The translations under genes and the position numbers were made by a program. Shown here one piece after another: positions 6,638 through 48,491 of a stretch of 64,000 bases of DNA (position 1 is its first letter; every line of letters begins with the position of its first letter). The stretch comes from Pseudogymnoascus verrucosus (lineage: Eukaryota): the NCBI GenBank assembly GCA_001662655.1, contig KV460213.1; one strand, 5' to 3'. The notes below the pieces were generated by a model, which was not told where the DNA came from, searched no databases, and saw nothing but the letters and a program-made list of their open reading frames with translations.

Positions 6638-6718
6638 TCCGGTATAGTGTAGGGGTTAACATAACCCGCTTTCAAATTTGGAGCCGGGTAGCCCCGGGTT
6701 CGATTCCCGGTACCGGAA
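6638..6718 (+). tRNA. tRNA-Glu(TTC) with 9-nt intron
   Basis: Acceptor stem TCCGGTA/TACCGGA, anticodon stem ACCCG/CGGGT, TTC at 6671-6673, intron 6675-6683, T-arm GGTTCGATTCC, downstream T-run; 72 nt after splicing. Confidence 0.92.
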
Positions 6719-28894: not shown

Positions 28895-29638
28895 ACTTGA
28901 CGCCTCGCTACTTCTCCGACTCGCACCAGCACACTACCGGTGAAAACCTCCCCAAAGATGGGCAACAGCAACAGTGGGCGATGTAAGGGTGGAACTTGGG
29001 ATTGGGATGGAAAGCACAACGCCTATCTGCTGTATTCTTGGGGCCTAGGCTGGTAGCTTATGGTTCTGGGTAGCTGGTAGCTTACGGTTATGAATGAATA
29101 ACTGTGCTGGTAGCTTACGGTTCTGAGTAACTGTGCTGGAGTAATGATATTGCTTTGACTCAGTCGTGCTTTGAATGTCAGTAACCCTGGCAACTGTTTG
29201 TGAATACGGGCTTGCTTTCGGAGTCGTGCATTGAATGCCAGTGAACCTGGTGAATCCTGTTTTCCTCAGAGTCGTGCACTCAATACCAGTAAATCTATCA
29301 AATCTCTGTGATGACAGCTATATATTGCATTGAATGTTTGCCCGTACTATATAGTAAATGATGCGGCTAATACTGTGGCCTGCCGGCAAGCAAATTCGTC
29401 GGTGCTCCTCACGTGCTCCCAATCCACGCCCTTATCAACCACATCGTAGCCAAATTTAATCATAACCCCGAACCAGCCAGCCTTCACCCATCCGGTTTCA
29501 CCTGAACTCCAGCGCCAACCCCGCACCGTCATCCTCAACCTCTCCACTCCAAACCCCTCGAGCTCATGAAGTAATCCTCATCTCAATCCGAAAATACACA
29601 TTCCCTCACACCATCAGTCGTTTCCCTCACAAGCTACA

Positions 29639-30412
29639 ATGCCATCCTCAACCCACCAAGCCAAGCGGCCCTACGCCGGCACACACAGTCAACACCAGGC
29701 TTCGATAACATCCTACTTCCCCTCCCCCTCTGGCGCCGCTCCCGCCCCGACCACCGTCCGCAATGCCTCTTCGCCCCCAGTCCTCCCAGCGACCGTCCAA
29801 TCCAACCTCCTCAGTGTCGGAATGCGCGTCCGCAAATCCGTACCCGAGGGCTACAAGACCGGCTCCTACAGCTCCTTTGCGCTGTTCTCCGACCAGGCAC
29901 CTCCCACGAAGCCTCAGCAGCAGCTACAGCCGCAGCGCCGCGTGAAGCAAGTATCAGGCAGTGCAGCGAGGGAGCTCGCGCCATTCTGCGGGATAATGAA
30001 AGTTGGCGGGCTGGCAGTTCAGGCTCCACAAGCAGATGAGGAGTACATGGATGACGAGGACGAGGTTCTGGACGAAGATGACGTCCCGGGTATGAGCTCG
30101 CAGGGCTCAACGCTGAGTGCTTACTCCACTACCACGCATAAACGCCGTCTCTCGGCTTCTTCGGTAGGCTCTGATGATGAGGGGGGAGCGCCGTATAGCT
30201 GGGCCGACATGGGGATCAGTCCTAAGTCGCAGGCTCCGCAGCAGGGTCAGGCTTGGGCTGTCGCGGGGAACCGTGCGATGGCGCTGCCGAGGAGGATGAA
30301 GAAGGCTGGTGCCGGGGGAGCGATGGGAGGGCAGGAGAATGGGGTTGACTTTGAGGAGGCTGGGTTCTTGGATTATGCGGCGCTGGGGGAGGTGGATATG
30401 GGGGGATTGTGA
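29639..30412 (+). CDS. Ribonucleotide reductase inhibitor-family protein (Spd1/Dif1-like)
   Basis: Motif VQSNLLSVGMRVRKSVPEGYKT; PIP-like QASITSYF; C-terminal DFEEAGFL. Confidence 0.8.
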   Translation: MPSSTHQAKRPYAGTHSQHQASITSYFPSPSGAAPAPTTVRNASSPPVLPATVQSNLLSVGMRVRKSVPEGYKTGSYSSFALFSDQAPPTKPQQQLQPQRRVKQVSGSAARELAPFCGIMKVGGLAVQAPQADEEYMDDEDEVLDEDDVPGMSSQGSTLSAYSTTTHKRRLSASSVGSDDEGGAPYSWADMGISPKSQAPQQGQAWAVAGNRAMALPRRMKKAGAGGAMGGQENGVDFEEAGFLDYAALGEVDMGGL

Positions 30413-31095
30413 TATGTACAGTATTGTGTGAGTGGGATGGGATGGGATGGGATGGGATGGGCCTGGCGAAGCTTATGGCTGGGTGGGGGGATAATGTATG
30501 TTATTGGGCAGCGGTTTCGGTGTTATGAGCAAAAGGCGTTTACAGAGCGGGATTTTAGCAAAGATGCTTAGATTAATTTATGGAAACACTTCCTCGAAGA
30601 ATGGGTATTGTGTCTTGCTCATCGCTTTGTGTTTAGGCTATCAATGTTTTGTTTCTCAAGCTTAGTGGGCATCCAGGAACATATTTGGGATGATACCCAA
30701 GCTTTGGAAGTCATCTCCTATTTACTCTTTCTCATCCGCTTCGTCTCCTTGGCTCTCATTATTTTCTACCCTAGTTTGGTTTTTAAACCGCATCTTCCTT
30801 CGAAGAAGAAAATCGACTCTTTGCCACCAACACTGAACCATACGAAGCATCCATTCCCCATGGGTTTACGATGCCCCTCTCCGAGACCCCAAGGTATAAA
30901 AAGGCAGATACAACGAAGGGCCGGTTGCTCATTCTATCTTCCAATTGGCGGTTGTTGTTCCTTCTCACATTGAAAGACCAACCGTGCCTTCCCTAGTTCG
31001 GCGGGTTGGTCTTTCGTTCTGCTCTCAAGTAAAGAACGACGCTAACCAAAAATAGCAATGAAGCAAAAAGAGCAAACAAAAACATACAAACAAAA

Positions 31096-31158
31096 ACATA
31101 CAACAGTGGGTATTCGCTGGTGGTCACCCACCCAACTACTAATCCACCGATCTCAAGC
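31096..31158 (-). rRNA. 5S rRNA gene, 3' half (interrupted)
   Basis: Minus strand GCTTGAGATCGGTGGATTAGTAGTTGGGTGGGTGACCACCAGCGAATACCCACTGTTGTATGT followed by a T-run Pol III terminator; typical ascomycete 5S 3' half. Confidence 0.92.
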
Positions 31159-31328
31159 AAACATATGGATAATAGTTAAATCAGTGCCATCCGTCCTAGT
31201 GGGTGAGCCTTGCTGCCCTTGCCCCTTATTTTGTGATCGTTACTATCTCGACCACCTCAACCATCTAAAAGTGGGTCAATTTTTGACGACGCGTTGCACC
31301 GCGACATTAGATGCATGTAGGTTAGCTG

Positions 31329-31426
31329 GGTGAGTGGGTGAGCTGGGTGAGTGGGTGAGCGTGGTGAGCAAGGTGAGTAGGGTGAGTAAGGTGAGTAGGG
31401 TGAGCTAGATGGGTGAGGAAGGCGAG
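31329..31426 (+). repeat. Left subterminal GGTGAG array (10 copies, ~8-9 bp period)
   Basis: Copies counted directly in the sequence. Confidence 0.9.
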
Positions 31427-31698
31427 TATAGCTAAGCTAGGAAAATGGTATAAAGGGCTAGTCTCCTGCCTTCACATTTTAAGGTCCTCTGTCTGCAACT
31501 TTGTCTATTTTTTTAATATTTGCTATAATTGTAAGGATGCCTCCTCCCTCGCGCTCTAGGGATTAGACTGTTGGAGGTAATTGCGGTAAACGGGGAACTG
31601 CACACAAAATCGTGTGAGGGTCTCCGGTCACCGTAATCAGTCTCTACGGGCAGCAGAACAGAGGCTTCACAGTAGGATACAGTATATAGAATAATATA

Positions 31699-31935
31699 AT
31701 CAATTGAATTGCTCACTAAACTACGGGTCTACGTACGCTATTTGTAGGCATGGGGAAACCCCCAAACTCCCTGAAGAATTGCTTCTTCTTCTCGAGTTGG
31801 GGGTGTGAGACTGGGCCGAACGCCCAAACTAATACTCTGACTAACCGGGGAACCAGACAGTCCCATGGAGAAAAGTGGTCATTTTGGGTGCAAAAGGCCA
31901 CCGTATTCTCATGGGATTGTCCGTTTCCCCCAACA
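31699..31935 (-). repeat. Subterminal block X, copy 1 (inverted relative to copies 2 and 3)
   Basis: Reverse complement GTTGGGGGAAACGGACAATCCCATGAGAATACGGTGGCCTTTTGCACCC...GGGGGTTTCCCC...TAGCGTACGTAGACCCGTAG...AATTCAATTGAT aligns with 45160-45330 and 48717-49034. Confidence 0.8.
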
Positions 31936-33010
31936 TAGACTAGGAGCTGTCGCGGTCACGTGATGGGAGTCAGGGCGGGTCAGCCGAGTCGGACCTGCTT
32001 CGGATACCATGAGGGACTCAATAGGGTTCCCCCTTCATCTTTTTTGTATCCTTCGTAGTAGACCTATAGGATTGTACCGCAACCCATCCGACTCGCACTC
32101 CCATATGCTATTGATCGTGAGCTGGTGCCCTGTGTCCTTACATCGCGACTGGCCTAGAACATATGTGTGTCTCACACTCGTTGGAAACCTGCAGAACTTT
32201 TAGCTAAGTGGAACATTATGTACGCGAGCCGTGTATCGTCACACCACATGTCAGCTTATGAGATATTGATTGCAGAATATTTGATATTGCGGCAATTAAA
32301 AAGTAGAAGTAGTATAGCAGCCGCAGATCGAAGCTTCTGTTGTGTGGGTGACAACCGTAGTAAGCTTATAATAACTTTAATCAGATAAAATGACAGTTTG
32401 CAGCCACGGCGAACTAAGCGATTTAGCGCATGTGGCTTTCCCATTTATTTGTGATGAGGGACCGGAGGGGACGATAACGAATAATTCCCCTGCGTGTATG
32501 TGGTACAGAGTATGTTTTTAGGGGCTCGTTTATAGGCATCATTAAGCAAACGGAATAAACCCTACCAATACCTTGCATCCTGATCTATTTTCAATAATAA
32601 TCCGTAAGGTGCATCAATCAATATATGAGTACGCAGGTGACTAATACAGCCTTGGCAGGGCTCGGCTGACCCCCCTACTTAATAAGTAGAGCATTTCTAG
32701 GTCAGCCGAGGCTACACCCCATGGTTAGGTCACCTACGTTCTGTCAATATATGCCATGCGTCGGTGACTATTATCTTGGGGGCATACGGCTCCGTATTCG
32801 TTGGCTAGGGTCGCTAAGCTGCGGCTGACAGCCGTCACTAGATAAAGAACTATAGGCGACAGGAACGGAGGGGGAGGGGATAAATACAAGCTATAAGTAA
32901 TTGTAGTTAGCTGTTTCCATTTCTATTTCCATTGAGTAGGACTCCTTTGCCTGTAAGCTCACTGTTGCCATTTTTACGGCCTACATTCGTTAGTATCAAA
33001 AACCAACATT

Positions 33011-34498
33011 ATGCCTCGCCTATTATCTAGCCTTCTCCTTGCTTTGCTTGGATCCGTGACCAGCACGATAGCATGTACAATTCCTACCACGCCGCCAGGA
33101 AACACCATCCTTGACAAGTTCAGCATTGTTGTTCAGAACCCGAGCATTCCCACAGTGCACAACAAGGTTATGAGATTCAGGGCTAATGGCGACGACGAGC
33201 ATTTGGTGCTGCCCCCTATAGGCGTTGCGACCAACGACGTGCTGTATCTTCAAGACGGCCGTCTCATTTACAATGCGATTCATGCTGTAATCGATCTAGA
33301 GGTAAGATTTCCATAATTACCCCTAGGACGGTGAGTTGAGTAATGTTAAAGCTGACCCTGCTAGTACAACGACCAAGATGATACAACTAAGATGTTCATG
33401 ACTGCACGGGAATACCACCCATCAGCGGTTTTCAAGGGAGAGTATGCTTGCGATCCAGACACGGATGAGCTGCAGATCCAGCTGAAACTGGTTTCTCGCC
33501 TTACTGATCCGCCTGTGCTTGGTGGGCAGATCGGCATACGGGACGCGGTTGGGACATTGGAATTCCGATACTCGCCCCCTGGAAACACCAGTAAGTTGCT
33601 TCTAACCTTTCTTTACCCCACGGGAGCAATTCAAGACACTAGAAATGAGGGGCACATGTGTTGTGATTACTGACACTTATGTTTACCTTACTTAGAGATC
33701 AACAATGAATTTCTGCCCGTTGAGATGGTGATTTTCCGTAACAGCATAAGCCCTACTAGTACCGCTAAGCCTAGCACCTCTACGGCTGCCCCTCTAAGTT
33801 CGACTGTGATTCTAACAACTACTGCTGAACCGCCAACAACCACCGCGGCACTACCAACCAGCACCAGCGTTCCTACGACCCCAACCAGCCCAGTAAAGGT
33901 TGGTGACTACGACTTTCTGTACTGCTGGGCTGAGCCAGCTGCTGGTCGGGCATTTGCTGCTAAATCCACTGCCGCGGACGACATGACCCTCGCGAAATGT
34001 GCGGCCTTCTGCACCGCCTACCCATACTTCGGCACCGAGTGGAGCAAAGAGTGTTGGTGCGGCAACGATCCAGCAACGGGATCTGATTTTGCTCCATTAG
34101 GAGAGTGCGACTACCCCTGCGCTGGGGACGCATCACAATTATGCGGTGGCTCGCGCCGTCTGTCGCTCTACTACAATTCAGCCCTAACCGGTCCCCAGCA
34201 ACCTAAGACCGTTGGCAACTATGAGTTTCAAGGCTGCGTCACTGATAGTCATGGACAGCGTACGTTGACGCAGGATATGCTCGGGAGCGATTACATGACG
34301 CTAGAGACGTGCGCTACTTTCTGTGGTGGCTACACGTACTTTGGGACTGAGTGGAGTACTGAGTGTTGGTGTGGGAATACTCTTACTACAGGCGCTACAA
34401 TTGTTTATGCTGGCCAGTGCAGCATGACTTGCAGCGGCAATAGCGACCAGTTGTGCGGGAATGGAGATAGATTGAGTGTTTACAAGGTGAAAGCTTAG
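33011..34498 (+). CDS. Secreted protein with Ser/Thr linker and two WSC carbohydrate-binding domains
   Basis: Signal peptide; introns 33302-33364 and 33591-33695 keep the frame; two YFGTEWSxECWCGN...C.G.....CG...RLS motifs. Confidence 0.88.
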
Positions 34499-34739
34499 GG
34501 TGTGCGTGGTTGAAGCACAGCTCAGTAGCTACTCAGGTTAAACAGCAATATCTCGGGTCCAAAGATAGAATTAGATATTGATCGTGCCTTTATTTCCGGT
34601 GCCGACTATCCTACTACCATTGGAAACGTTGATAGTTCACTATTCAATTTCTATATAGTTGGCACAAAAAGTTTATAAAGCGTTCAATAGCGCACTTTCC
34701 TTACATTACGCGTAGGCAGAGTCTGATACTGCTTGAGGG

Positions 34740-35735
34740 GAGGAAGACATCCTCGCGCTGGATTGCTGTGAGATTATATGTAGAGCACTAAGAGGCAATG
34801 TACGGAGGAATTTGGATATTTCAAAAGCAACTAACTACTTCGTCCAACGGAAAAAGGTAGAAGGCTCGATGTTGCCTCCTAAACCGTCTGGCATGGATTC
34901 CAGCCAAAGGGGCCGATCAACCGCTGATACTATCAACCGAAAGAGATCATCTAGTTCACTTAACGCGCCCCTACTACCAAAGAAGCGCACTTGCTCCAGC
35001 TCCCCAACAAAAAGGGAGCAAACTCCGTCGACGCATAACCGAATCCGCCGTCGCGTCATTGTCCGCGACTACGGAACACCTATATACAAGGCAAGCTCTT
35101 ATGTCGCCATAATTGCTGCGTTGGAGAGATTTGCGGAGGTAAACAGTGCATTAGCTGACCAACGTAGGATACGAGTCTCTACACGACCGTGGTAGCATGC
35201 TCCAGCGCGACATGTCGATTGGAAACCTTATGATGAACGAGGATGTCGATAACCCTTCCTGGCCCTCATTCTCATCGATCTCGCAATTAAATCGGAGCAA
35301 GAGGAGCCTTCGGGAGCACGAAGCAAGACCGGCACGAAAGCTTTTATAGCTATTAGGGTACTCCTTGGCGAGAATCATTCCTTCATACACGATCTAGAAT
35401 CGTTCTTCTAGGTAGTCTTGTGGATTTGCATCCACTATAATGGGCCGGCTCAGAAACTGACAGTTGTCTATAGGTTTGATAAGTGGAACTTTTCAGATAC
35501 AGAAGAGTTAGCTGAGTCCAAGAAAGGGGCAGTGGTCCATGAAGGAGATTTTAAGAGGATGGTGGAGGAGAACATTAGGCCATACTACAAGTCACTTCAG
35601 CCTTAGCTGAATCGATTACGAAAGGTGGTATTTCCAAACGGCGGGAGATGGAAAAAGGAAGATAGAGGCCTATATTCTCGGATGAAGGAGGTTCTCCGTG
35701 AAGCACAGAGGGACTTGAATGTAGCAGCAGAATAG
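34740..35735 (+). pseudogene. Fungal-specific FunK1 protein kinase fragment
   Basis: HNRIRRRVIVRDYG, LQRDMSIGNLM, RTGTKAFIAI, HSFIHDLESFF*VVLWIC spread over different frames with stops; N-terminus missing. Confidence 0.8.
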
Positions 35736-36019
35736 GTACCACAATATATAAGCGCTCTCTTGAATATTGTTTCTGTGCATGATGCGCTATGTTTCATGAT
35801 ACACAACGTTGGCTAGATACCTCAACTTCTGCTGATGTACTTGGAGGATCAAACCTTCTAGGCCGCAGTCAAATGAAAATGGAGTCAAAAGAGCCTTAAT
35901 GGGCAGTGGGTCTGTTTCTAAACTCAATCTATTTCTGGAGTTCGCACCCCTGTCGCGGCCCTGTTCGTTTGGGGGAGCAAGGCCAGTGCGCACCTTCCCC
36001 AAGTAAAACAAAGATTTAG

Positions 36020-36240
36020 GTCTAAAGTAGGGGCTAAAGCTTAGTATCTTAATAACTATACTACTAGTTGCTTTAAAACTTAGATAAGAAGCTTTAAATG
36101 CCTATAAAAGGCTAAATATACATTTTTATAATTTACTAATAAATAGTTGTTAAGATATTTAGTTACAAAATTCATTATTTTAGGTGTAAAATGGAGATGC
36201 TAACTTGCTTATGGTGCTGACTTGCTTATGAAATACGTTA
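36020..36240. mobile_element. AT-rich relic of a pogo/Fot1-like DNA transposon end
   Basis: Ends in CTTGCTTATG..CTTGCTTATGAAATACGT followed by TA (TIR with internal repeat plus TA target); interior strongly TA-rich, RIP-like. Confidence 0.55.
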
Positions 36241-36909
36241 ATTTATAAGGACTAAGTTTAAATATCGCTCATTTAGTTTTAGAGGTTTAGTAGTTCCATC
36301 TATAAATCATGTAACCTTAGTAAAATGTAATCACCCTATGTTCTACCATTAAACTTAGCCTCTTATGGTTACTTTATAGCACCTCTACTCTTTTAGGGCT
36401 TAGATTACATAGCTCTAACTTATGGCTCACAAATGGCGAATCATCCCAAAAATAGGAGCAAAGCCGCGGGCAGTACTCTAGGGACTGGTAGGCCAGTTGG
36501 GGGGAAGGGGGGGGGAGGGGTTAGTGCTTTGTTAATATGGGAAAGAGAGCGATGCTGCATGGGTGTTTTTGTAAGCAAACAAAGGTGGTGAAACGCTCTG
36601 ATCGACTCAGCAGAAAGAGTCTTCGGGGTTCGCAAGGTTGGGATACATAGGTATATTGAAGGCTAGCCTACTTGAGGCACCTTTATTTTCTCTTATTTAA
36701 ACTTCCCAATACTCTCAAAAACACTACATATATCTCCTTTATCCTCTCTGCTGCCCATAAATATCGAAATCTAACCAAATATGCCCGGCACAATTATCAT
36801 AACGATCAGTTTATATATATATGAATTACAGGTATATAGTTCATGAACAACTTGCACCCTCCCTCTTTCCTGACTCCCTTCCTTTTCCAACTCCCTCTTC
36901 GGGACAGAT

Positions 36910-39900
36910 CTAACTACACTTCTTAATAATCTTATCGATCTTAGAGGTAAGATTATTAAGAAGTGTAAAGACATTCCCCAGCTTAGAGACATCATCGACA
37001 GTCATAGCACGACGCAGCTTTCCCAGTTTCCCAAACTGCTCCCCCTTACCTATAGTGCCACCGCCCCCAACACCGAGCAAATCGGCAAAGATAACCATGG
37101 GTGCGCTCTTGGGGTCCTTGACAATGCTAAAGATGTCCGCGGCGCCATTAGACAGCATGCCAATGAGTCCAATGGCGCCAGCCAGGTCAGCGAGCCCCGC
37201 GATATCCGCGCCGAGGCCGCCTACAAAGGGAACAACTATCAGCACTGCGGTGATGATCTCCAGGATCAGCTTCTGGCGGTCGGCGTTTGACTGCGCCTTG
37301 CTGATTACCTTGACCTGCGCAAGGGAGTCGATGGCCTGCTGGATCATGGCGATGGGCATGGCGAGCACCTGCGCTGGGTCCGTCCCCGAGCCTTGCCACT
37401 GCCCGAGTATCTGGTTCATCCACGTGGAGTCGATGGTGGACTGCAGCATGGTCATGTTGGGCAGAGCGGCAGTGACGATGTCCTTGGGGTTGGTGGGATT
37501 GACGTTGCCAGAGCCCTGGGGGAGGCCCTTCCAGTAGCTGTATATGCCACTCTGGTGACCATTCACCGTTGGCGGGGGGAAATCTTTGTCGCCGAAGGAG
37601 ACCCAGTCGGCAGAAATTCCGTAGTTGGCGGAGAGGTCCGCGTAGAAGCCGGTCGAGTTCTTGAGATCGAAAAGGCATGTAGCCTTGGGATCCGAGCTCA
37701 ATCTGGTCAAAGGGGCAGGTCTGTGTGGTGCGGTTTACTCCTTGGACTTGCCATGTGCAATCAAAGTACTTGTTACCAGGGCCGTCGACAGAGTTCATGA
37801 AATGGGCTATCGCGTTGGGCACCTCCTCCTTGATGGCCTCGACGTAGTAGCCAAAGAGACTGTCGTAGTCGTTGTCAACGCTGGTGTAGTTTGCAAGGGC
37901 GGCAGCGAGCTCCTTGGAAAGGGCATTCACAGTGAAGATCTCTGCGCACTGCTTGGCGATCGAGCCCACGGCAGCGACGACATCGTCAAGGTTATTGTAG
38001 TTCTTGGTGAAGTCGCAGGGGGGCACGACGCCGTCGTCGCCGTCGTCGGTGCCATCGGACTTGGAGCCCTGCGAGTAGTCAAAGACGAGGTCTATCGCCC
38101 AGTCCACCGATCCGCCGGTATGGTATTGCCCCCAGTAAAAAAGCCGCGCTGCATATGTCCTGTCCGCCACGTACGAGACCCACTGCGTGTCGTCGTACAC
38201 GAGGATGTCGCCGTTCAGGAGCTCGTTGTACCCACCCCTGGTAAATGATTCGCCTGTATGATCCTTAAGCAGCGTTATATTCCTGCTGCCGTAAAGATCC
38301 GGGGAGTTGGCTGAGCTGATGATCTGGTTGATTTCATAGTTGGATATATACCCGGATGTATTGGTGCAAGGCCCTGGCGTCGCGCCAGACTCTGGCCCTG
38401 TAGATAGGCACTGCGGACCTGTGCATCCAGCCTTTGCCATCTCGAAGCTTCGGCCATAGCGGGCCATACCGATCACGACCTTGTTCAGGGGCACGCCGGC
38501 CTTGGTGATCATAGAAATGGCGTAGTAGGTCTCAGTGGAGTTGGTGTGTGACCGCAGACAGTTGCCATTCTCGCAGTCCTCGTTGACGAATTTGTTGGCA
38601 TAGTCCCATTGCCCATGAAGATCGTATGTCATGTAGACAATGTAATCGACAACTTTGCTTATAGAAGCAATAGGGAAATTCCGCAGATACCAGTACGACG
38701 CCGGCGCCGCGATGCTTACCGTCCTACCCGCAGGCAGCGCCGCCTTCACGGACTTTAGGAACGCGAGGTAGTTGACGCCATCTTGAGGAGTTCCCGGTTC
38801 GGCTCCCTTGATATCAGTCGCACCAGGGTACTCCCAGTCGAAATCTAGACCGTCAAGGTTATACTTGTTAAGAAACTCAAGCAGACTTTTGACAAATGTG
38901 GCTCGTTGAGCATCCGTAACGCCCGCATGGAAGATTGGGGACGTATCGGCATCAGTTGAAAAAGACCAGCCGCCGAAGGACATGATACGCTTAGTGCCTT
39001 TAAGAGCGACAAAGTTGGCAAATTTCTCTGGGTAAGTGCTGACATCTACTTGAAAGTCTGCAGTAATAGAACCGAAGGCATAGTGGACGTAGTTGTAGAT
39101 GCTGGTGTCGATATCAGACGGGTTCATATGAAGGCAGGCCCGGTCGGCGCTAAACGCCTCAAAGTATGCAATCCTCCTGTATGCGACATCTGAAGAGGCG
39201 CCTTCAATAATGTCGACGCCGCAGTCAGAGATACACCCATAGGTCCCTACGGCAGCTGTTCCAGGGGCCTTTGTTGTCGAGTTGGTTATAGTGCAGAACT
39301 CTGGCGTTGTCCCGCACTGTCCCCATATATCGCAGCAGGAGTTCAGTGGACAGGGTTCAGACTGGCTAGTGTAGTCCCTTTCGCCGGGGCTTTGGTCCCA
39401 GGGACTTGAGGCCCGCAAATGGTGCCAGCAACAGGCGCCGGCATAGGCGGAGTTCCTGTGCTAAGACATATGTGCTGACCAAGCTGGAGGTCGCCACAGC
39501 CCATCCAACCCCATGTATTTTTGTTGACAGCCTCGATATTGGCTGTCGTAGTATGGTGGGCAGTGGCGATAGTGTTGCAGATATCGTGTTGCAAGATTGT
39601 GTAGGAGAAGCAAGAGCCGTCTGCGCCCGGCTTGGGCGAGAAATCTGGCAGGGTCCCGGTTGAGCAGCATACGTACTGGTTAAGAATGATAGGCTTGGTG
39701 CAGAACGATGCCCCGCCATTGTAGCTCTCCAGTTGGGCCTGGGTGATTGCGCAGCGTGCGGCCAACGCATAGCAACCGTCCCCAGCCCCTGCCTGTGTAT
39801 ACTTGCAGGTTGCGCGTGCGACGAGGCCACTGTTAGTTTCGCTTTCACCATCTGAGGGCGCAGGCGTAATTTTGATATTGGAGCCCGGGATCGTGCTGAG

Positions 39901-40734
39901 AGACACGTCGGGCCACGTAGAGCTCCTGTCAAAGCCATCGAGACACTGAGCTCGGCTCCAGCTTTTCAGAGCTTCTTGCACGGCCGAGAGACTCCCAGGT
40001 AGCATCTGCAAATACACCAAAGATATCGATAGCTGAGGAAGACGCTTCACCACCGCATAACTGGGCAGCAGAGCGGTCACGAGCATTTGGGGGTCTGGAG
40101 CTGGTATCTTTGGCGAACTTGTCGATGAGGCTTGCAGCACTTTCCTTCTCCACCTGTGAGCCAACGTGGACACCCACGATGGCTCCTCTGTAAGAAGATA
40201 GAATTATGCGCCCTCCGCACGTTGCGTCGCTGCTGAGATAGTGGCTCAACTGCTCGGCGGCTGCAGCGACATCCCTAGCGGTAGCAGCGTCCTCAGAGGG
40301 TCCTTCGCTGTCCCACCATCCCAGCTGGACGTTGACCCTAGTCTGCAGTACACTATTGCCGCATGGCGTGGTTACAGCGGAAACCGTGTGGAACTTGTCG
40401 TCATTGGAGGTGGTATTGTAGGAGAGCTGCTGTCTTGAAGTGAGCTGTCCACCCCGAGCCGCCACTGCAGCTTCGGGATTCGAACAGGCCCGGAAGGTGA
40501 GGTGGGTATTGGCATCATCCACTGGGTTGTGGACGTTGAGGTCTAGCAGGAACCTCTCGTCACAGCGGGTCAAGACCCTTGTGTTGTGGTAGTAGGTCCA
40601 GTTGCCCGGATTTGGCCCTGATTTACTACATGGTAAGGGACAGCGAGACCGCTGGGCATCAAATGTCTGGCCGTGCGCTGAGCCGGACAGGAAGACCACG
40701 GACAAGACCGCCAGGCAGGATGTTATCCGCCTAT
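36910..40734 (-). pseudogene. Killer-toxin-like (subgroup C) GH18 chitinase with LysM and CBM18 domains; frameshifted
   Basis: Signal-peptide-like segment lacking an in-frame ATG; two LysM; CBM18 CPLNSCCDIWGQCG; GH18 DGLDFDWEYP; hydrophobic C-terminus; frameshifts near 39975, 39355 and 37675. Confidence 0.85.
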
Positions 40735-42115
40735 AGGGGTTCGCAAAAAGTGATTGAGACCCTATAGTTGTAAAACAAAATGAAGTCTACTCCCACAATC
40801 CGAGATGAGGGGACGACAGATTATTATAAGAATGAGTTTAGAGTGTGTAGGTCAAAGAAATTGTCTTCAGATCTGCCTGGTAGGAGGGGAGTGGCTTTGT
40901 ACATACTAATAAATGAACGCCTATATAAACTTCGTTACCCACAGATAGACATTTGATTGGTAGTTGCTGTTACTTGCTGTCGCTGTTGGGGGCAAAGTAG
41001 TCTAAGTCTGCTCTACTGTTCTCACAAGGTGCTTGTCCCTGTCTGCAGTTCCTAGCCGACTTTTAGACCACTTATTACATTATTATCGCGCGAACAGAAC
41101 AGAATACGACGTAACCTCTACCTATTTGTTATACAAAGTGATAACTTTGCCACAATCGAGACGGTGAAGTGCCTTGAGCAGCTGCCTAGGTAGGATATAA
41201 CTCCGACTGCACCACACTCCAACAATAGATCGTTCTGTCGCGGAATAAAGAATTGACATGTGTTCTGTAGTACTAATTGTAAAAGAGACTTCGGGCCCGG
41301 AGGCACAGCACGCCGAATTGCTTAGTATAGTAGTGTAGTGCTTAATGCTTGCTACTATCAGTCGCAAAGTACTATTCTCGGCCGGCCCCACCTTCTTGTA
41401 TGGCTTTACCACATTAGAGTGATTGGTGGCCCTGATTCTTTAACCCAGCATAATGTTTTTGCAAGCGTTTTCATTGTGACAGGATCTCCAGGCGTCCAGT
41501 TGGTCGAACTGGGATATTCTACGCTAGTCCTAAGGCATGAGGGACCAGCTAACCTTAAAAAGCCAAGATTGCCAAGTGTTTGGAGCTATCCACTCTAGAC
41601 CCAACAGTGACGGAAACGTCAGGGGCCACGATCGTCCATCGCGTGAGCTAATCCACTCTCGGGCCAACAGATTACAAGGGCCCAAGATTGCCAACAGCTT
41701 AGGCTAGTCTACTTAGAAGGTTAAGCCCACATCAGGTGGGACTGATAGGATCACAAAGGATCACTGAGAGCTTAAATAGTAGATATGCCCGACGTAATGC
41801 TGCTTTTAAGCCGACTTACGAGTTTTACATAGGTATATACTCGAAATTAGAGAGAAAGAAATAGGAAGGAGAAGGGAACGGAGAGTGTTGGTTCAAAGGG
41901 TTACGAGCAACGGCATCTTATTTGCACGAAAGAGAAGAGGAAAGATGTGCCTGCCTTGCCTCCCCCCTCTCCGCTCAACTGTTTCTCACTTCTGTCCGCC
42001 TCTCACTCTCTCCCCCTTATCTCAACCATCTCCCCCACTCCTCCCCTCTGTTCTATAGTCAATAGTAGCCTCCCCTTGAGAGACACTCGAGAGACGAACT
42101 CTCAGCACGCCCACC

Positions 42116-43285
42116 ATGAAGCTACTGTATCTCTTGAATATCCTGTTCCTTGTTACTCTAGGCCTCGCGTCCACCCTTGCCGGCCTCTACTAAACTGTCT
42201 TTTTCTGGCATGCCTATTAGTTGGAAGTGCTTCAGTATGGACCTAAATCAACTCTTACTGTCAAGGGCTGCAAAGGGTCAGCGGCTGGGGGAGGTTGCTA
42301 CGTATGTTATCCATGCCCCCTAAGATGCCCCCTAAGAGGAGAAGAGAAAAAGATGAACATATAGGCATTTTGCTGTACCCCGCTGCATTGTTCTACCTTG
42401 CCTATAATGTTGCAAAAGAAATAGAGGCTGATAAACCTACTTAAGAGTTTAATGAATTTATCAAGTATATCGAGAGAACAGGAAAAAAAACTGGATTCTA
42501 GGGAAGCACTAGTGTAGGCATGAACCTGACCCCCGATGTTCTGGACACGGTGAAAAAGCTCAACGCGGCCGGTTACAAGAACCAGCTTGAGCCTGGAAAG
42601 CTGCTCCCAGATAACTTCAACATTGCCGACTCACCAAACTTCCAAAAGATGATGGGACCTATTATGAACAACATCGACGCTACGCGCCTGGCCATGAAGG
42701 ACGAGACAGGAAGTATACAGCTTGCCAATATACAGGTTGCCTATAAGTCTTCACACTCTCAATATTTGTCTCCTCTCTTCTCCTTAGAGAAGATGGCGGC
42801 TGTGACAGTGATAGTGACGGTGACTGTGGCTGTGACTGACTTTGCGTATTGCAGTGAAAGGGGTCTTAGATGGCTGACTGGAGGAACATAGAGGCCAAAT
42901 GCTCGAGGCATTCAACGGGTTCAAGGCTAAGCTGGGGCTTACATTCACCAACGAGTTTTCGGAGCACACGGCCCTAGACGGCCATAAATACCAGGTTATA
43001 GATCCAGAAAAGATGGTAAAAAGTAACCCGAGCATCACGCAAAATATCAAGGGTTTGATTTCTGGGTTCCCCGCATAGTAAGGCCCCTGTCCTCCCTCAT
43101 ACGTCTTAACCGAACAAGTCATAGACTAGGGTTTACTATTCTGTATCAACTAACCATAAAACTATCATAGCTATAACTCGCTGGAAACAAAGGTAGACAA
43201 GGGCGCCAGCCATCTCAACGCCATCCAAGCCACTTAAGGCTTCATTATCTGGGTGTTTGACGACCCTAAGGTGTGTAGCACTTGA
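42116..43285 (+). pseudogene. Small secreted Cys-containing protein divergent from the chitinase; multiple premature stops
   Basis: MKLLYLLNILFLVTLGLA signal peptide; introns ~42302-42446, ~2 more to 43170; in-frame stops at 42191, 42218, 42499, ~42875 and 43235; ends ...HLNAIQAT*GFIIWVFDDPKVCST. Confidence 0.7.
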
Positions 43286-43779
43286 AAACGGGTGAATATT
43301 GGAGGTATAGACGGGATTCAAAGTTTCGTACAGGGATCCATATAGTAGATCATAGTGTAATTATATTATGTGGATGATTTGAGGGAGGCGCTGTCGCCGT
43401 CTAGTGATACTTTCATTTCTAGATCGGCGCCGTTGGCTTAATTGAAACCAAAACTATAAGCTTGAACGCGAACATATCGGTAGACGAGGTGGAGTAATAA
43501 TTCCGGTGCTAGATTAGAAGAAAGATTAGAAGAAAAGTGAAGATAAATATTCAAAGTCGTAATGGTGGTGGTGATCCAATCTTGGGTCTCTAAGTTAGTG
43601 ATTGCTCCACTTAACCCCGCCTACCGTTTGTCCCCAGGTCTCATCCTTCCTTCTTTAACATTCACGACGGCGACAATATCACTAGGCTATTTCTAAAAGT
43701 ATCACATAATTAACCAGAATTAGAGTACCGTCGTCTCTTTCTGCTACACGCCAACTTACACTCACCAGCACCCGGGGTG

Positions 43780-44973
43780 ATGACTACGATTAGCTCCACA
43801 CAACAGCAGCTGCCTGTACAATCATTTCCCCTATTCCCCCGGCTTCCTGTCGAGCTGCAGCGCCGCATCTGGGAGCTGTGCCTACCCGCGCGCATTGTTG
43901 AGCTGGACCTGCAAGGCACCGACATAGTTCCCACGTCGTGCAGCCTACAGCAGACGTCGCAGATCAACAGTCGCGCCTCGCTAGCCACCCGGATTTGTAG
44001 GGAATCGCGCAGCGTTGCCTTTCTCGCTGGCGCCACGGAGCTATACGACGACGACTTCCAGCGCAGCGACACCCCAGAATGGGAGGCCATGAACGACATC
44101 CGGGATCTCTGGGCATCCCCGCCCACTGACGTGCTGCACCTCAACTACTATGGCGCTTACGATGGCTATTACCATTGGAGCGGCAACCCGGTGGAGTTTC
44201 TGATATGGTTAGCCCGCCGTTACCACATGCGCATGTCTATTGTTGCGTCGTTACTAGTGGGATTTGGCGATACCGAGGGCGCCGAGTATTTGTTCGGATT
44301 CGACAAGAATTTCGACTTGCTCGCCGAAGGTGGCGGGCCATACTTGACCACCCTGTGCGTGGTTAGCCTGCACGTCGGTTTAGAATCTGCGCTGTGGAAG
44401 GATGGGGGGATGTTGTTTGGGCGCTTGGGAGAGGAGCGCGTGAAGCTCATTAAGGTGGGCGATAAGGCCGCGCTGAAGGCGTATTACAACCTCTGGGCCG
44501 CGGGGCCGGTCGAGGATCGCGAGCCGGAGCAGTTTTTTGACTTGGCCGTGAGTAGGCACGAATCCGAGTGGCTACCCCGAGTGGCGCAGTGGAGGCGGAG
44601 GCTACTAACAACGTGGATGAATCACTGCTGGGCGAAAGCGGAGGAGGCGAACGAACTTGGGAGCATCCAAGACCACCAGGGGGTCTGGCGTGCGCCGAGG
44701 AACAATGAGGGGAGGATTATTCCAAAAGGCGATTCGGGTCCCTTTTCACATTATATGAGGCCGGGGCCTGGGTTGGGCGGTATGAGGACGCGTGTGCCAA
44801 ACGAGGAGCATCCGTGGGTCGCGGGGGGATTGAGAGACATGCCGTGCTTCGAGCCGGTGGTCATGTTCCGGCTCTGCGAAGATAAGTGCTACGCTCCTAA
44901 GCCACAGCGTACGAGAGGTTTGGGAAGAGGAGGGCTGGGTATTAGGGGACAATCGTCGCGAGGTTCTGTGTAG
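43780..44973 (+). CDS. 2EXR-domain protein
   Basis: N-terminal SFPLFPRLPVELQRRIWELCLPARIVEL and ...ICRESR motif; intact 397-aa ORF. Confidence 0.78.
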   Translation: MTTISSTQQQLPVQSFPLFPRLPVELQRRIWELCLPARIVELDLQGTDIVPTSCSLQQTSQINSRASLATRICRESRSVAFLAGATELYDDDFQRSDTPEWEAMNDIRDLWASPPTDVLHLNYYGAYDGYYHWSGNPVEFLIWLARRYHMRMSIVASLLVGFGDTEGAEYLFGFDKNFDLLAEGGGPYLTTLCVVSLHVGLESALWKDGGMLFGRLGEERVKLIKVGDKAALKAYYNLWAAGPVEDREPEQFFDLAVSRHESEWLPRVAQWRRRLLTTWMNHCWAKAEEANELGSIQDHQGVWRAPRNNEGRIIPKGDSGPFSHYMRPGPGLGGMRTRVPNEEHPWVAGGLRDMPCFEPVVMFRLCEDKCYAPKPQRTRGLGRGGLGIRGQSSRGSV

Positions 44974-45159
44974 TGCTCACTGCAATTACAATCTGAGTAC
45001 GTAACTGTCACAACCGTTATTATTGCCATAGCGGTGAATATTATGTCGCTGTCCAATCGCCCGAATTTACTAAAACGTCGCTGTCCAATCGCTCAGCCCT
45101 CGCTCAGTCGTCGCTGCCTTCGCTGGTGTCTCTCAGTCGTCGCTCAGCTGTCGCTCAAT

Positions 45160-45330
45160 TTGTTGCGGGAAACGGACATTCCCGTGGGATACGGTGGGCT
45201 TTTACGCCCAAGATAACGGGTTATCCCCGTGGGACCGTCCAACTTCCCATTTGAGACAGTGGCTTCTAATGGTATGGCGCCACACATCCAAAACCCAACT
45301 GAGCCTCGAAAGCCCAACTTATCAGGGTTT
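45160..45330 (+). repeat. Subterminal block X, copy 2
   Basis: GGGAAACGGACATTCCCGTGGGATACGGTGGGCTTTTACGCCCAAGATAACGGGTTATCCCCGTGGGACCGTCC...TTATCAGGG. Confidence 0.8.
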
Positions 45331-45408
45331 TGGCCAAACTTCGGTGTTGATACGAAAATGACGCGAAAGCGAAATTGACGCCAAACTGACAGGAAAATGT
45401 TGCTTGGC

Positions 45409-45480
45409 CTCACTCACCCCGCTCACCCCACTCACCCTGCTCACCACCCGGCTCACCCTGCTCACCCCTCGCCTCACCCT
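45409..45480 (-). repeat. Right subterminal CTCACC array (7 copies; inverse of the left array)
   Basis: Copies counted directly; ~9 bp period. Confidence 0.9.
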
Positions 45481-45551
45481 TCAGGCGGCAAGGGGCAGCG
45501 ATTCCACGCTATGCCTATTAGCACGATTGGGACTATTAGCTAGAGGATACG

Positions 45552-45612
45552 CAAGCTTGTGTATGGCAGAGCGGACGGGATGCCCAATTCTCTGCCGTCT
45601 GTGATCGCACCC
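45552..45612 (-). rRNA. 5S rRNA gene, 5' half (interrupted, partly diverged)
   Basis: Minus strand GGGTGCGATCACAGACGGCAGAGAATTGGGCATCCCGTCCGCTCTGCCATACACAAGCTTG with the conserved CATCCCGTCCGCTC; joined to 31096-31158 gives 119 nt. Confidence 0.85.
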
Positions 45613-46450
45613 GCGCTAAGACCACCACTAAAACCGTCCCCCGTTGTCAGCCTCCCGCTTCCGTGTTCCCGCTCTTAGACCATTGCTGCATTTTACTTGC
45701 ACTGCCACTAGGCACGTCCATCTTTCCTGTGGCGACCCCCTAAGCGACCTAAGAGCGATTAAAAACGCGAAACGGTTGGCTAATTCCGAAATCTGCCTCG
45801 GGCCTCTCGAAAGGCCGCATCCTGTGTATCCGATCACGACAGCGGCTTCGTGGCAACGGGGGATGGTTGACTGTGCTTCGATGCTTTTTCTTGTACTGCT
45901 CATCTAGTTCTGAAAACTATCCAAGGCCTAGAGTCTATGTAACCTCTGATCTGACACTAGAGCCTCGTAACCGACAGCAACCCGACAAGCGCGAAAACCG
46001 TTGACTTGTTCATACTATCGACTCAGCTTGATCTCATCTAAGATTAGTTCTCTAAACTTCTTCATTCTCTAAGTTTTACCACGATTATACGTAGCTAAGA
46101 GTCTACACTCCTGACAAAATCTGTCGGACTGTCTCAAAGTCAGGACTAGGTGTGACAACAACATGTCTGAGGCCATGGCGCTAAACAGCCGTCAATCTGC
46201 CTGACAAGTGCAGCTATTTTCGTCGATATGCCTTGCCTTGCAGTTCGCCTTACTTTTACGTTTTACACTTTCGCCTCACCGAAGTGCACGCTAGTTCTCT
46301 ATAGAACTGAAGCAGTTGCAGAGCGTTATGCTACCTACATAAGTACTTTGGCTCGCCCACTGCCAGCGGCGGTCAAGTGCAACATCTTGATAAGTTCACA
46401 GCGCATGTACATTTTCTCACGAACACATCAGTGAGATGGCAAGGTCAGCC

Positions 46451-48491
46451 ATGACAACCACTTCAGAATTGACATTCCCGGTTAGCCCCGAGTTCGACCC
46501 AAAGGAGCGAATTCTGGTATGCTGCATCTTTATCTTGGGTTAATCCGACTTGTGCCCAGAGTGTTAATAGTTGTTTTGTGATATGTTAGGATCACTTTAG
46601 AGTGATGCGAAAGTTCAAGGGTATCTTTGACGACACAGAGAAAGCCGGCGCAAACGAGGCTCTTTACCCAGCACCTCCGCCCGGCGATTTAGGACTGGAA
46701 AAGAACGCTGGGTGGAGAGCACAATGCCTTTTGATGAGCGCCGAAATCCGCTACCCGATGTATTTGCAACTTTTAGAAAAATGGGTAACCGCTCACGGCA
46801 CTGCAACTAAGGATGAGTGGCCGCTCCCACCATGGTAAGATTGATCCGGATTCCAGAACTACTTCTATATGTATTCATATTGGAGTTTTTGCTTATTCTC
46901 CTATGGCAGGGACGTGGCCATCATATTCTATGCGCATCTTCTTTCACCATTCAACTTTCAGCGCGACATAGAATCAAATTTCCCAAAGCTCTGGCAGGCA
47001 GAGATTGAATTTCCATTGGCAAGGATGGCATCGTCCAACACAGACGAGGCCAGCAAACGCGCATGGATGAAAGAGTACCCCAAAATTCCTTACGATATCA
47101 TCGCGTTCCGTGATGGAGGCAGCCAAACATACGTTACTTCGAAGAACAACATGGACATACAAGGCTACATATGCCGCTCATGGAGGTGCAACAAGAAAAA
47201 GACCTATGCGATCCCCATGGCAGACTGGGCCAGATACAGAGTCGCACAGACTAGCCTCACATGTCCAGGCTGTAGAACGAGCTTCTCTAGATATGGACGC
47301 AATCTGCAAGACAGGGTGGTGCGGTATTCCCGCGAGGAGTTTGGATACCCAGTCTTCAACTTATGGGAGAGCCCACAACGACAGTTTTGCAAGTCAGGCT
47401 TTGTGGACCGCATCCTAGACTTAGACGAAACTTATATCCTGGCGCCATCTACCGTCTCCCGCTACCTGAACTTCTTGCAGCTCATGAAGGAGAAGCAATC
47501 CATACTGGTACCGACGCTCGACATTGACCTTTTCTGGCACACCCACCAACTCTCGCCGGCTGCCTACCACGCCTACTGCAAGAGGCACATAGGACAGCGC
47601 ATTAACCATGATGACACAATCCGCACGGGGATGCGTTCTACGGCACAAGACATGACGGCCCATCTCTGGACCATGAAATACAACGAGTCATACTTTGCTC
47701 CGGGAAATGATGCGAAAATGGCTGATATCCAACAGCAAAGGGATGCATGCAAGCAGAAGAAGCTCGACAATGTAAAGGCGCTGGCCGCTTTCGACAAAAA
47801 CAACAAGCATATAAAAGATGCGCTAGACAACGCCTACAGCAGCATAGTGCAAGAAGAATCTGAATTGCGTAAGGTACGAGGAACGGCACGCGCTATACAA
47901 TCGGAACTTACTGCCGCCGAGGAAGCCCGAGATGCCGTCAAACCGACAATACGACTGTTTAAGCGGCGTTACTACCGTGGGCTACTGCGATTCCAGGTGC
48001 AACGGCACGAGGGTACGTGCCGTCGGCTGAAGGAAGACTATAGACTCAGGCAGCAGGAGATTGAGAGGCTCGATAATATCATCTGGGATTCCACACTTCC
48101 AGAACAAGAACGCTGCCAGAAGGAGTGGGAGGTCGTGAAGGAGAGACGAGGTACGTTGGAAAAGTCGCTTCAGGCCAGTTTGGATCGAGAGACATTGGCC
48201 ATTGGACATCCCAAAGACCCCAAAGATCGGTATAACGGATCATGGTGTTCTATCGTGCCATCCGAGGTGCAGCACAATAATTTCCCCATTATGAGCCCAA
48301 GCCACATGCACACGCATGCTGGTCACAGTTCTGGCGGAGATGGAGGTGCTTTTGGTTTTGGTTGTGGTTTTGGCTGTGGAACTGGCTGCGGGAGTGGATG
48401 TGGTGGAGGCTGTGGGGGAGGCTGTGGGGGAGGCTGTGGCGGAGGTTGTGGTGGTGGTTGTGGGGGCGGTGGGTGTGGAGGAGGTAGTTAA
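46451..48491 (+). CDS. Glycine-rich domain-containing protein (GRDP/DUF1399-like) with coiled coil and (GGGC)n tail
   Basis: Motif RYLNFLQLM...LVPTLDIDLFWHTHQLSP; introns ~46518-46589 and ~46835-46909; Gly/Cys C-terminal repeat. Confidence 0.82.

What the first reader, a model, noticed from the sequence alone, without database searches (positions are those of the whole stretch)
31096..45612. A 5S rRNA gene split by a 14.4 kb cargo element with a CAAGC direct repeat
Seen: the 3' half of a 5S gene (31096-31158) and the 5' half (45552-45612) lie on the same strand in the right order. Removing the intervening DNA and one CAAGC copy restores a 119-nt 5S (...CCATACACAAGCTTGAGATCGGTGG...). Gene content also switches from core to accessory exactly at the left junction. 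Established: several Starship lineages (giant tyrosine-recombinase transposons of Pezizomycotina) target 5S rDNA and leave short direct repeats. Inference: 31159-45551 is one site-specific insertion into 5S.
Basis: partly seen in the sequence, partly recalled or inferred. Interest (0 to 1): 0.9.

Follow-up and report, generated by a model that had tools for sequence, protein, structure and literature searches.

The report
Captain-less Starship splitting a 5S gene
A fungal 5S ribosomal RNA gene is cut cleanly in two by a 14.4 kb gene-carrying mobile element whose ends and target site match known "Starship" giant transposons but which has no recombinase gene of its own, so it is a new example of a known kind.

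Summary
Two halves of one 5S rRNA gene lie on the minus strand (3' half 31096-31158, 5' half 45552-45612), each ending in CAAGC. In 4 of 4 related genomes, intact multicopy 5S contigs join the halves with exactly those 5 letters shared.

The Starship reading is partly supported.
- **For:** CAAGC aligns with the UAAGC site of 5S. Published Aspergillus Starships of captain families fam06 (Enterprise) and fam05 have direct repeats there, and some have GGGTGAG/CTCACCC inverted repeats 30-50 bp inside. This element has 8 and 6 inward-facing GGGTGAG copies at its two ends. The ends are multicopy in relatives.
- **Against:** no DUF3435 captain, transposase or conserved Starship accessory gene is detectable, even in a six-frame read-through. 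No empty site was found. The interior differs between relatives: a form lacking 36468-45331 (5.5 kb if otherwise colinear) versus the 14.4 kb form. So it is not simply "one insertion".

Cargo is a DUF7909/WSC gene, a broken FunK1 kinase, an intact GH18-LysM chitinase whose nearest relatives outside the genus are from Eurotiales, and a 2EXR gene.

Verdict: an old, captain-less member of a known 5S-targeting Starship lineage. Interest is modest.

The parts
31096..31158 (-). 3' half of a 5S rRNA gene, with a T-run terminator just downstream at 31092-31096
   Evidence: cmscan RF00001 26.1 bits; sequence; joint with intact 5S contigs
31154..31158 (.). Left copy of the CAAGC direct repeat
   Evidence: 5 letters fit both sides of the joint
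31159..45551 (.). Inserted element, 14,393 bp, with no recombinase gene
31201..31417 (+). Left subterminal array: 8 exact GGGTGAG, mostly at 9-nt spacing, the first 42 nt inside the junction. A GCTGCCCTTGCCCC motif lies at 31212-31225.
31699..31935 (-). Copy of a ~240-bp dispersed repeat (also at 45161-45331 and 48799-49034). Not an element-specific inverted repeat.
32957..34498 (+). Cargo gene with DUF7909 and two WSC domains
   Evidence: Pfam
34737..35408 (+). Fungal protein kinase (PF17667) pseudogene: C-terminal part only, spread over three frames
35950..36400 (.). AT-rich island (GC 0.26-0.33) with a RIP-like dinucleotide bias
   Evidence: TpA/ApT 1.46 for 35800-36460 against 0.84 for the window
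36468..45331 (.). 8.9 kb block that is skipped in a shorter form of the element in relatives
   Evidence: joint 36467->45332 in 4 of 4 runs
36913..40765 (-). Intact-looking cargo chitinase of about 1270 aa (GH18, chitin-binding, LysM) in four exon blocks
   Evidence: Pfam; relatives; tblastn
43714..44970 (+). Cargo gene of the 2EXR family
   Evidence: Pfam 2e-14
45332..45551 (.). Right end, conserved and multicopy in relatives
   Evidence: 12-17 contigs at 45530; joint at 45332
45406..45479 (-). Right subterminal array: 6 exact GGGTGAG facing inward. A GCTGCCCCTTGCC motif lies at 45487-45499.
45552..45556 (.). Right copy of the CAAGC direct repeat, part of the 8-bp palindrome CAAGCTTG in the 5S
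45552..45612 (-). 5' half of the same 5S rRNA gene. Its first ~20 nt are diverged from the usual 5S start.
   Evidence: cmscan 14.9 bits

Best explanation
A dispersed 5S rRNA gene of a Pseudogymnoascus-like fungus was split when a Starship of the 5S-targeting, Enterprise-type lineage integrated at the CAAGC core. This core is the equivalent of UAAGC in loop B/helix III and lies inside the palindrome CAAGCTTG.

Inferred mechanism: a DUF3435 tyrosine recombinase bound the inward-facing GGGTGAG repeats near both ends. It exchanged strands within a 5-bp core shared by element and target, which left one CAAGC on each side.

The copy seen here is old and is shared with related organisms. Its captain region has since been lost, probably at the breakpoint 220 bp inside the right end (45332). 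The interior was remodelled, giving a form without 36468-45331 (5.5 kb if otherwise colinear) and the 14.4 kb form.

What remains is a captain-less relic with both ends intact, carrying a working-looking chitinase and other accessory genes.

Shown: the split, the repeat, the end architecture, the absence of a captain, the multicopy ends and the interior variation. Inferred: the recombinase, the order of events and the loss of the captain.
For: Exact split:
- The two halves plus one CAAGC equal the intact multicopy 5S of 4 of 4 relatives.
- CAAGC aligns with UAAGC of RF00001.

Match to published Starships (supplement Tables S4/S7 of PMC11162782):
- Aspergillus Starships with DUF3435 captains have direct repeats ttaagccacac, taagc/ttaagc, aagccacacg (fam06, the family that holds the Enterprise captain) and gccgtacttaagccac (fam05).
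- Six elements have TIR strings holding GGGTGAG/CTCACCC, placed 30-50 bp inside the repeat. Four of the six have (T)TAAGC/AAGCC repeats.
- The paper's text says that 5S-targeting arose at least 5 times and that Enterprise has a 5-6 bp repeat inside a 10-12 bp palindrome.

End architecture here:
- GGGTGAG occurs 22 times in 64 kb against 8.9 expected; 0 of 100 shuffles reach 22.
- Eight copies lie on + at 31201-31417 and six on - at 45413-45479.

Relatives:
- The ends are multicopy: 8-13 contigs at 31194 and 12-17 at 45530 per run.
- Left flank (97.1-98.9% in X3, X4, X6) and interior (98.9% over 8.3 kb in X3, X4; cargo-A contigs of X6 similar) are about equally diverged, which fits vertical inheritance.
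- X2, filed under a different organism code, holds 0.96 of the words across the left junction.

Cargo: GH18/LysM chitinases recur as Starship cargo (aspjen1_s01490; Lamia h1).
Against: - No DUF3435 or any recombinase was found in 17 ORFs of at least 90 aa, in 150 of 153 stop-to-stop ORFs of at least 45 aa, or in six read-through frames at E up to 1.
- None of the conserved Starship accessory genes is present.
- No empty site was seen.
- The size (14.4 kb) is below the reported ranges: 27-393 kb in PMC9156397, and 19 kb for the smallest element in the table of PMC12153272 that I saw.
- The repeat is 5 bp, whereas 5S-targeting Starships are described with 6-16 bp, although taagc/ttaagc is on record.
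- The outermost ~50 nt of the two ends are not significantly inverted-repeated (z 0.9).
- The link to fam06 rests on a 7-nt motif, its position and the target site, not on a captain phylogeny.
- That the published repeat strings are Aspergillus 5S sequence is partly my recall.
Confidence: 0.5

Rival explanations
1. Same Starship lineage, but this copy never carried a captain. It is a non-autonomous derivative (ends plus cargo) that a captain encoded elsewhere in the genome inserted into this 5S gene in trans, and the short form has been copied several times in this way.
For: - Both ends with their GGGTGAG arrays are intact.
- The joint 36467->45332, with 23-30 related filler letters, is seen in 4 and 2 distinct contigs in X3 and X4 at roughly single-copy depth each. 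X3 and X4 also hold the long form.
- This is as expected if a captain-less short form exists at several loci.
- Relatives encode many DUF3435 genes (Table S3 of PMC11162782).
Against: - The joint is supported by only 37-48 letters on its shorter side. It could equally be the normal sequence upstream of a captain in autonomous copies.
- This locus looks old and fixed.
- No trans-mobilisation of Starship derivatives is mentioned in the five Starship papers listed, where the word 'non-autonomous' occurs 0 times.
Confidence: 0.22
2. A non-autonomous cut-and-paste DNA transposon with subterminal repeats and a 5-bp target-site duplication, unrelated to Starships, that happens to prefer this 5S site. 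It would resemble the small-RNA-gene-targeting Dada elements (recalled) or gene-capturing Pack-MULEs (recalled).
For: - Arrays of short subterminal repeats in inverted orientation and a short flanking duplication are typical of several DDE superfamilies (recalled).
- There is no tyrosine recombinase in the element.
Against: - No transposase domain of any kind was found either.
- The same 5S position and the same GGGTGAG motif occur in elements with DUF3435 captains.
Confidence: 0.08
3. Not a transposition: DNA was captured at a break in a fragile, Pol III-transcribed 5S gene, or there was a rearrangement between loci, and the 5-bp repeat arose from repair.
For: No empty site and no recombinase were found.
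Against: - The ends are multicopy in four genomes.
- Other, unlike sequences abut the 5S at the very same nucleotide: 5-8 contigs behind 31158/31160 in X3 and X4, and 6-10 before 45552 in all four runs.
- The ends carry organised inward-facing repeat arrays.
Confidence: 0.04

Closest known systems
Enterprise-family (fam06) 5S-targeting Starships of Aspergillus, e.g. aspjen1_s01490, aspacu4_s00331, asppar4_s02220 (supplement of PMC11162782); Osiris of A. fumigatus (PMC12153272)
   Same: - Insertion at the UAAGC-equivalent site of 5S.
- A short direct repeat inside a palindrome.
- GGGTGAG/CTCACCC inverted repeats a few tens of bp inside the repeat (seen for aspjen1 and aspacu4; no TIR rows seen for asppar4).
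- Accessory cargo that includes GH18-LysM chitinases.
   Different: - No captain and no conserved accessory genes.
- 14.4 kb against 28 kb and more.
- Long 9-nt-period arrays (8 and 6 copies) rather than the 1-2 copies in the recorded TIR strings.
- The host is a Leotiomycete-like fungus rather than Aspergillus.
Voyager of Macrophomina phaseolina (PMC9156397)
   Same: A cargo-carrying element that always inserts into a 5S gene and disrupts it.
   Different: Voyager inserts 20 bp from the 5' start of the gene. This element sits near nt 58-62. Voyager has a captain and demonstrated empty sites.
Degraded Starships ('Derelict', PMC9156397)
   Same: Starship-derived regions that have lost DUF3435 while cargo persists.
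   Different: Those are recognised by at least 3 conserved Starship genes (DUF3723, FRE, PLP, NLR) and lack clear ends. This one has none of those genes but has both ends and the target repeat.
Bacterial integrative elements in tRNA genes (analogy drawn in PMC9156397)
   Same: Tyrosine-recombinase integration into a conserved small RNA gene, with a short shared core.
   Different: Bacterial islands usually restore the RNA gene. Here the 5S is destroyed.

Membership tests
Starship (Pezizomycotina cargo transposons) | DUF3435 tyrosine-recombinase captain near one end | tested here: not met
   No hit in 17 ORFs, in 150 of 153 ORFs of at least 45 aa, or in six read-through frames at E up to 1. None in 30 flank ORFs either.
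Starship (Pezizomycotina cargo transposons) | Discrete insertion flanked by a short direct repeat that restores the target when removed | tested here: met
   CAAGC is on both sides. Intact 5S contigs of 4 of 4 relatives join the halves with 5 shared letters.
Starship (Pezizomycotina cargo transposons) | Presence/absence polymorphism with an empty site | tested here: inconclusive
   Flank contigs of X3, X4 and X6 stop at 31117 inside the repeated 5S. No contig bridges the two flanks in either form. Only four runs were laid.
Starship (Pezizomycotina cargo transposons) | Conserved accessory genes (DUF3723, ferric reductase, patatin-like, NLR) | tested here: not met
   None among the Pfam hits.
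Starship (Pezizomycotina cargo transposons) | Size in the reported range | tested here: not met
   14,393 bp. Reported ranges: 27-393 kb (abstract of PMC9156397) and 19,097 bp for the smallest in the table passage of PMC12153272.
Enterprise-type 5S-targeting lineage (fam06) | Captain falls in fam06 in a recombinase tree | not testable with these tools
   There is no captain in the element, and no genome is held to find the family's autonomous copy.
Enterprise-type 5S-targeting lineage (fam06) | Direct repeat over the UAAGC site of 5S, within a palindrome | tested here: met
   CAAGC aligns with UAAGC of RF00001 and lies within CAAGCTTG. Published repeats are ttaagccacac, taagc and aagccacacg.
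Enterprise-type 5S-targeting lineage (fam06) | GGGTGAG/CTCACCC inverted repeats a few tens of bp inside the direct repeat | tested here: met
   The first GGGTGAG lies 42 nt inside the left junction and the last 72 nt inside the right.
5S rRNA gene (RF00001) | Reaches the Rfam gathering score | tested here: not met
   The halves score 26.1 and 14.9 bits against 38. The rejoined sequence could not be given to Infernal. Its fold is no better than shuffles.
DDE cut-and-paste transposons | Transposase gene, or ends shared with an element that has one | tested here: not met
   No transposase domain was found. Ends shared with an autonomous DDE element could not be tested.

The most novel reading that the evidence does not exclude
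The element represents a non-autonomous Starship derivative: just the two ends, with GGGTGAG arrays serving as captain-binding sites, plus swappable cargo. On this reading it has multiplied in trans into many 5S genes of these fungi. Its end architecture is conserved between Eurotiales and a Leotiomycete, and its chitinase cargo block was moved horizontally between these classes.
Probability: 0.2. Interest if true: 0.7.

Novelty: new member of a known kind. Interest (0 to 1): 0.35.

Why it matters
- It adds a compact, clearly bounded example to the 5S-targeting Starships in a genus where the large published survey lists captains but, in the rows I saw, no bounded elements.
- Because both ends are only 220-260 nt and carry a simple repeated motif, it points to a candidate recombinase-binding site (GGGTGAG at 9-nt spacing). 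That could be tested with a mini-element.
- It hints that many 5S genes in these genomes are occupied at one nucleotide.
- It shows how an accessory chitinase with Eurotiales affinities came to sit between core genes.

Tried and rejected
- **Whole-genome search:** no genome is held.
- **Earlier findings of the scan:** nothing by place, sequence or words.
- **Metagenome scans:** two scans, one with an internal repeat motif and one with the right junction, gave 0 matches each, and the cap is now used.
- **Terminal strings in the literature:** a search of the PMC11162782 supplement for this element's terminal strings gave 0 occurrences. CAAGC is not recorded there as a direct repeat. The stored file is cut at about 4.0 million characters, so absence proves little.
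- **Outermost ends:** they are not a significant inverted repeat (z 0.9).
- **The 51+29-nt "inverted repeat"** (31856-31935 against 45161-45239): I first took it as an element TIR and then rejected that. It is two copies of a ~240-bp dispersed repeat, with a third copy outside the element at 48799-49034.
- **Composition:** it does not set the element apart from the flanks, apart from one small AT island.
- **Holes in contig cover:** X3 and X6 have no cover at 46428-48400, and X19 has little or none over much of the interior. I do not use these as evidence.
- **X19 identity gap:** about 99% on cargo A against about 93.5% on the right flank could mean a mixed sample, so no inference is drawn.
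- **Literature searches:** one for fungal site-specific 5S transposons gave 2 irrelevant papers. One on truncated 5S pseudogenes was seen only as a listing.
- **Fold of the rejoined 5S:** not canonical and not better than shuffles.
Full report
**1. The observation**

The two pieces of 5S lie on the minus strand.
- The 3' piece is 31096-31158. cmscan aligns 31095-31194(-) to RF00001 at 26.1 bits (E 0.1 for a 16 kb search; gathering score 38), with the well-fitting part ending at 31158. A run of five T follows on the sense strand.
- The 5' piece is 45552-45612. It appears only when a 221-nt stretch is searched (14.9 bits, E 1.3).
- At the gathering threshold the window holds only a tRNA.
- CAAGC stands at 31154-31158 and 45552-45556.

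The strongest check came from related genomes.
- A search with 26200-36100 found 23 runs.
- Logan contigs of four of them (X3, X4, X19, X6) were laid on 28500-48400.
- In 4 of 4, contigs of very high summed depth (671-1135, against roughly 19-41 for single-copy parts; 4, 4, 2 and 4 contigs) join 31153 to 45552 with exactly 5 letters fitting both sides.
- These are the intact multicopy 5S genes of those genomes. They show that the window's halves plus one CAAGC make the normal gene.
- They are not an empty site at this locus, because the shorter side of the joint is only 24-43 letters.

The 5S copy itself looks decayed.
- Behind 45593, 10-20 contigs per run run on unlike the window, so the first ~20 nt here are atypical.
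- The rejoined 119 nt folds at -37.9 kcal/mol, no better than shuffles (z -0.65).

**2. What lies between the halves**

The segment 31159-45551 is 14,393 bp.

Pfam hits and tblastn give:
- a DUF7909 + WSC gene (32957-34498, +);
- the C-terminal part of a fungal protein kinase (PF17667) spread over three frames (34737-35408), so a pseudogene;
- a GH18 chitinase with chitin-binding and LysM domains (36913-40765, -, about 1270 aa in four blocks), matching annotated relatives end to end;
- a 2EXR-family gene (43714-44970, +).

There is no DUF3435, integrase or transposase:
- not in 17 ORFs of at least 90 aa;
- not in 150 of the 153 stop-to-stop ORFs of at least 45 aa (three ORFs at the very edges were left out);
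- not in all six frames read through with X at stops, at E up to 1.

Thirty ORFs of the flanks hold none either.
- Left flank: coatomer gamma, a kelch protein, phosducin-like, a ribonucleotide-reductase inhibitor.
- Right flank: a GRDP-like protein, a Zn2Cys6 factor and a catabolic cluster.

**3. The ends**

- GGGTGAG occurs 22 times in the window (8.9 expected; 0 of 100 shuffles reach 22).
- Eight copies lie on the + strand at 31201-31417 and six on the - strand at 45413-45479. These are two inward-facing arrays, mostly at 9-nt spacing.
- A GCTGCCC(C)TTGCC motif sits 53-54 nt from each end in inverted orientation.
- The outermost ~50 nt are not significantly alike (z 0.9).
- A longer inverted match (31856-31935 against 45161-45239) is two copies of a ~240-bp dispersed repeat, with a third copy outside the element at 48799-49034. 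I do not count it as part of the element's own ends.

**4. Relatives**

- X2, filed under a different organism code, holds 0.96 of the sampled words across the left junction.
- X3 and X4 hold the left flank (30 and 33 differences in 2,618 nt). They also hold the interior 36463-45156 on single-copy contigs (88 and 86 differences in about 8.3 kb). Flank and element are therefore equally diverged, as expected for inheritance by descent.
- X6 and X19 have no cover over most of 36468-45099, and one contig each at single-copy depth (26, 18) joins 36467 to 45332 with about 25 other letters between. A form without this 8.9 kb block therefore exists (5.5 kb if otherwise colinear with the window).
- The same joint, with related but different filler, is also seen in 4 contigs of X3 and 2 of X4, which hold the long form too. 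Further copies with that junction therefore exist.
- The right breakpoint, 45332, is exactly where the dispersed repeat copy is truncated.
- The element's ends are multicopy: 13, 10, 8 and 9 contigs at 31194, and 17, 15, 14 and 12 at 45530.
- Other sequences, too unlike this element to align, abut the 5S at the same nucleotide. There are 5+3 (X3), 5 (X4) and 3 (X19) contigs behind 31158/31160, and 7, 8, 10 and 6 contigs before 45552.
- No contig bridges from the unique left flank into the element or into an intact 5S. The flank contigs stop at 31117 inside the repeated gene. An empty site was therefore neither found nor excluded.

**5. Comparison with what is known**

Starships that insert into 5S are well described.
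[quoted passage not shown] - Enterprise itself has a 5-6 bp repeat inside a 10-12 bp palindrome (PMC11162782, passages).

In that paper's supplementary tables (searched by string; the stored file is cut at about 4.0 million characters) I found Aspergillus elements with DUF3435 captains whose direct repeats are:
- ttaagccacac, taagc/ttaagc and aagccacacg, with captains in fam06, the family that holds the Enterprise captain;
- gccgtacttaagccac, with a captain in fam05.

These strings contain the UAAGC that aligns with this window's CAAGC in the RF00001 alignment. That they are Aspergillus 5S sequence is otherwise my recall, together with the paper's general statement.

TIR strings with GGGTGAG or CTCACCC:
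- Six elements in Table S7 have them.
- Four of the six have such UAAGC-site repeats (aspacu4, aspjen1, aspnig13, asptub6). One has agtaag (aspory12), and one was not looked up (fusoxy29).
- The TIRs lie 30-50 bp inside the repeat.
- In three of these elements the captain starts about 330-350 bp from the repeat.
- One of them, the 28-kb aspjen1_s01490, also carries a GH18/chitin-binding/LysM gene. GH18 and LysM are listed as cargo of A. fumigatus Starships too (PMC12153272, table passage).

Target site, repeat length, palindromic context (CAAGCTTG) and end motif therefore all agree with this lineage.

Captain-less "degraded" Starships are also on record (PMC9156397). They are defined by conserved accessory genes that this element lacks.

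**6. Mechanism and rivals**

Most likely (0.5):
- An Enterprise-type Starship integrated by tyrosine-recombinase strand exchange within the 5-bp core.
- The captain was later lost, plausibly at the 45332 breakpoint, which lies where a captain's upstream region would be expected.
- The interior was then remodelled.
- The small AT island with a RIP-like bias (TpA/ApT 1.46 against 0.84) next to the other breakpoint may be a remnant of lost sequence, but nothing identifies it.

Second (0.22): the copy was already captain-less and was moved in trans. The several contigs sharing the 36467/45332 junction fit this but do not prove it.

Less likely:
- A DDE transposon (0.08). No transposase was found, and the same motif and site occur in captain-bearing elements.
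- Capture at a break (0.04). This is contradicted by the multicopy, organised ends and by other insertions at the same nucleotide.

**7. Cargo and host**

- The best hits of the chitinase are three Pseudogymnoascus proteins (78-99% identity) and one metagenome protein.
- Next come Penicillium angulare (63%), Aspergillus niger and Rasamsonia emersonii (56%).
- Other Leotiomycetes are at 46-48% (120 listed of 1,525 hits).
- In a quick maximum-likelihood tree of the query and 43 of those 120 (the top 27 plus 16 named picks), the Pseudogymnoascus clade is sister to P. angulare and then to A. niger + Rasamsonia (SH-aLRT 100 and 90). Four other Leotiomycete genera (five proteins) fall elsewhere.
- This fits transfer between Eurotiales and this genus. 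In a large paralogous family, however, differential loss is not excluded.
- The published survey lists many captains in Pseudogymnoascus genomes. In the rows I saw they appear only in the captain table, not among bounded elements.

**8. Verdict**

The element is a small, old, captain-less member of a known 5S-targeting lineage, and it is not a single unaltered insertion. It counts as a new member of a known kind and is of modest interest. The trans-mobilisation reading is the one worth testing.

Noticed in passing
window 31699-31935 (-), 45161-45331 (+), 48799-49034 (+): Three copies of a ~240-bp dispersed repeat, one of them outside the element. The copy at 45161-45331 is cut off exactly at the 45332 breakpoint.
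   Followed up: partly
window 36913-40765 (-): Outside its own genus, the cargo chitinase's nearest relatives are from Eurotiales (Penicillium, Aspergillus, Rasamsonia), not other Leotiomycetes. This suggests horizontal transfer.
   Followed up: partly
runs X3, X4, X19, X6 at window positions 31158-31160 and 45552: Several other sequences, unlike this element, abut the 5S at the same nucleotide. Their first or last letters share a TGGAT(T)A-like motif with this element's ends. They may be diverged subfamilies using the same site.
   Followed up: no
run X19, window 32050-35251 versus 46182-48400: Cargo A is about 99% identical to the window, while the right flank is only about 93.5% identical. 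The run has about 107 Mb of contigs, so it may be a mixture.
   Followed up: no
window 36915-36967: A perfect 20-nt inverted repeat with a 13-nt loop lies inside the last codons of the chitinase gene. It gave a weak chance-level miRNA match.
   Followed up: no
window 6638-6718 (+): A tRNA gene with an 11-nt intron, next to a short AT-rich stretch at about 6700-7200.
   Followed up: no
window 50250-61109: The right flank holds what looks like an aromatic-catabolism cluster: a Zn2Cys6 factor, aldehyde dehydrogenase, zinc alcohol dehydrogenase, fumarylacetoacetate hydrolase, FAD monooxygenase and a bicupin.
   Followed up: no
window 45593-45612: The first ~20 nt of this 5S copy differ from the usual 5S start of related genomes, with several A-to-G changes that would still allow G-U pairs in helix I (hand comparison).
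   Followed up: partly
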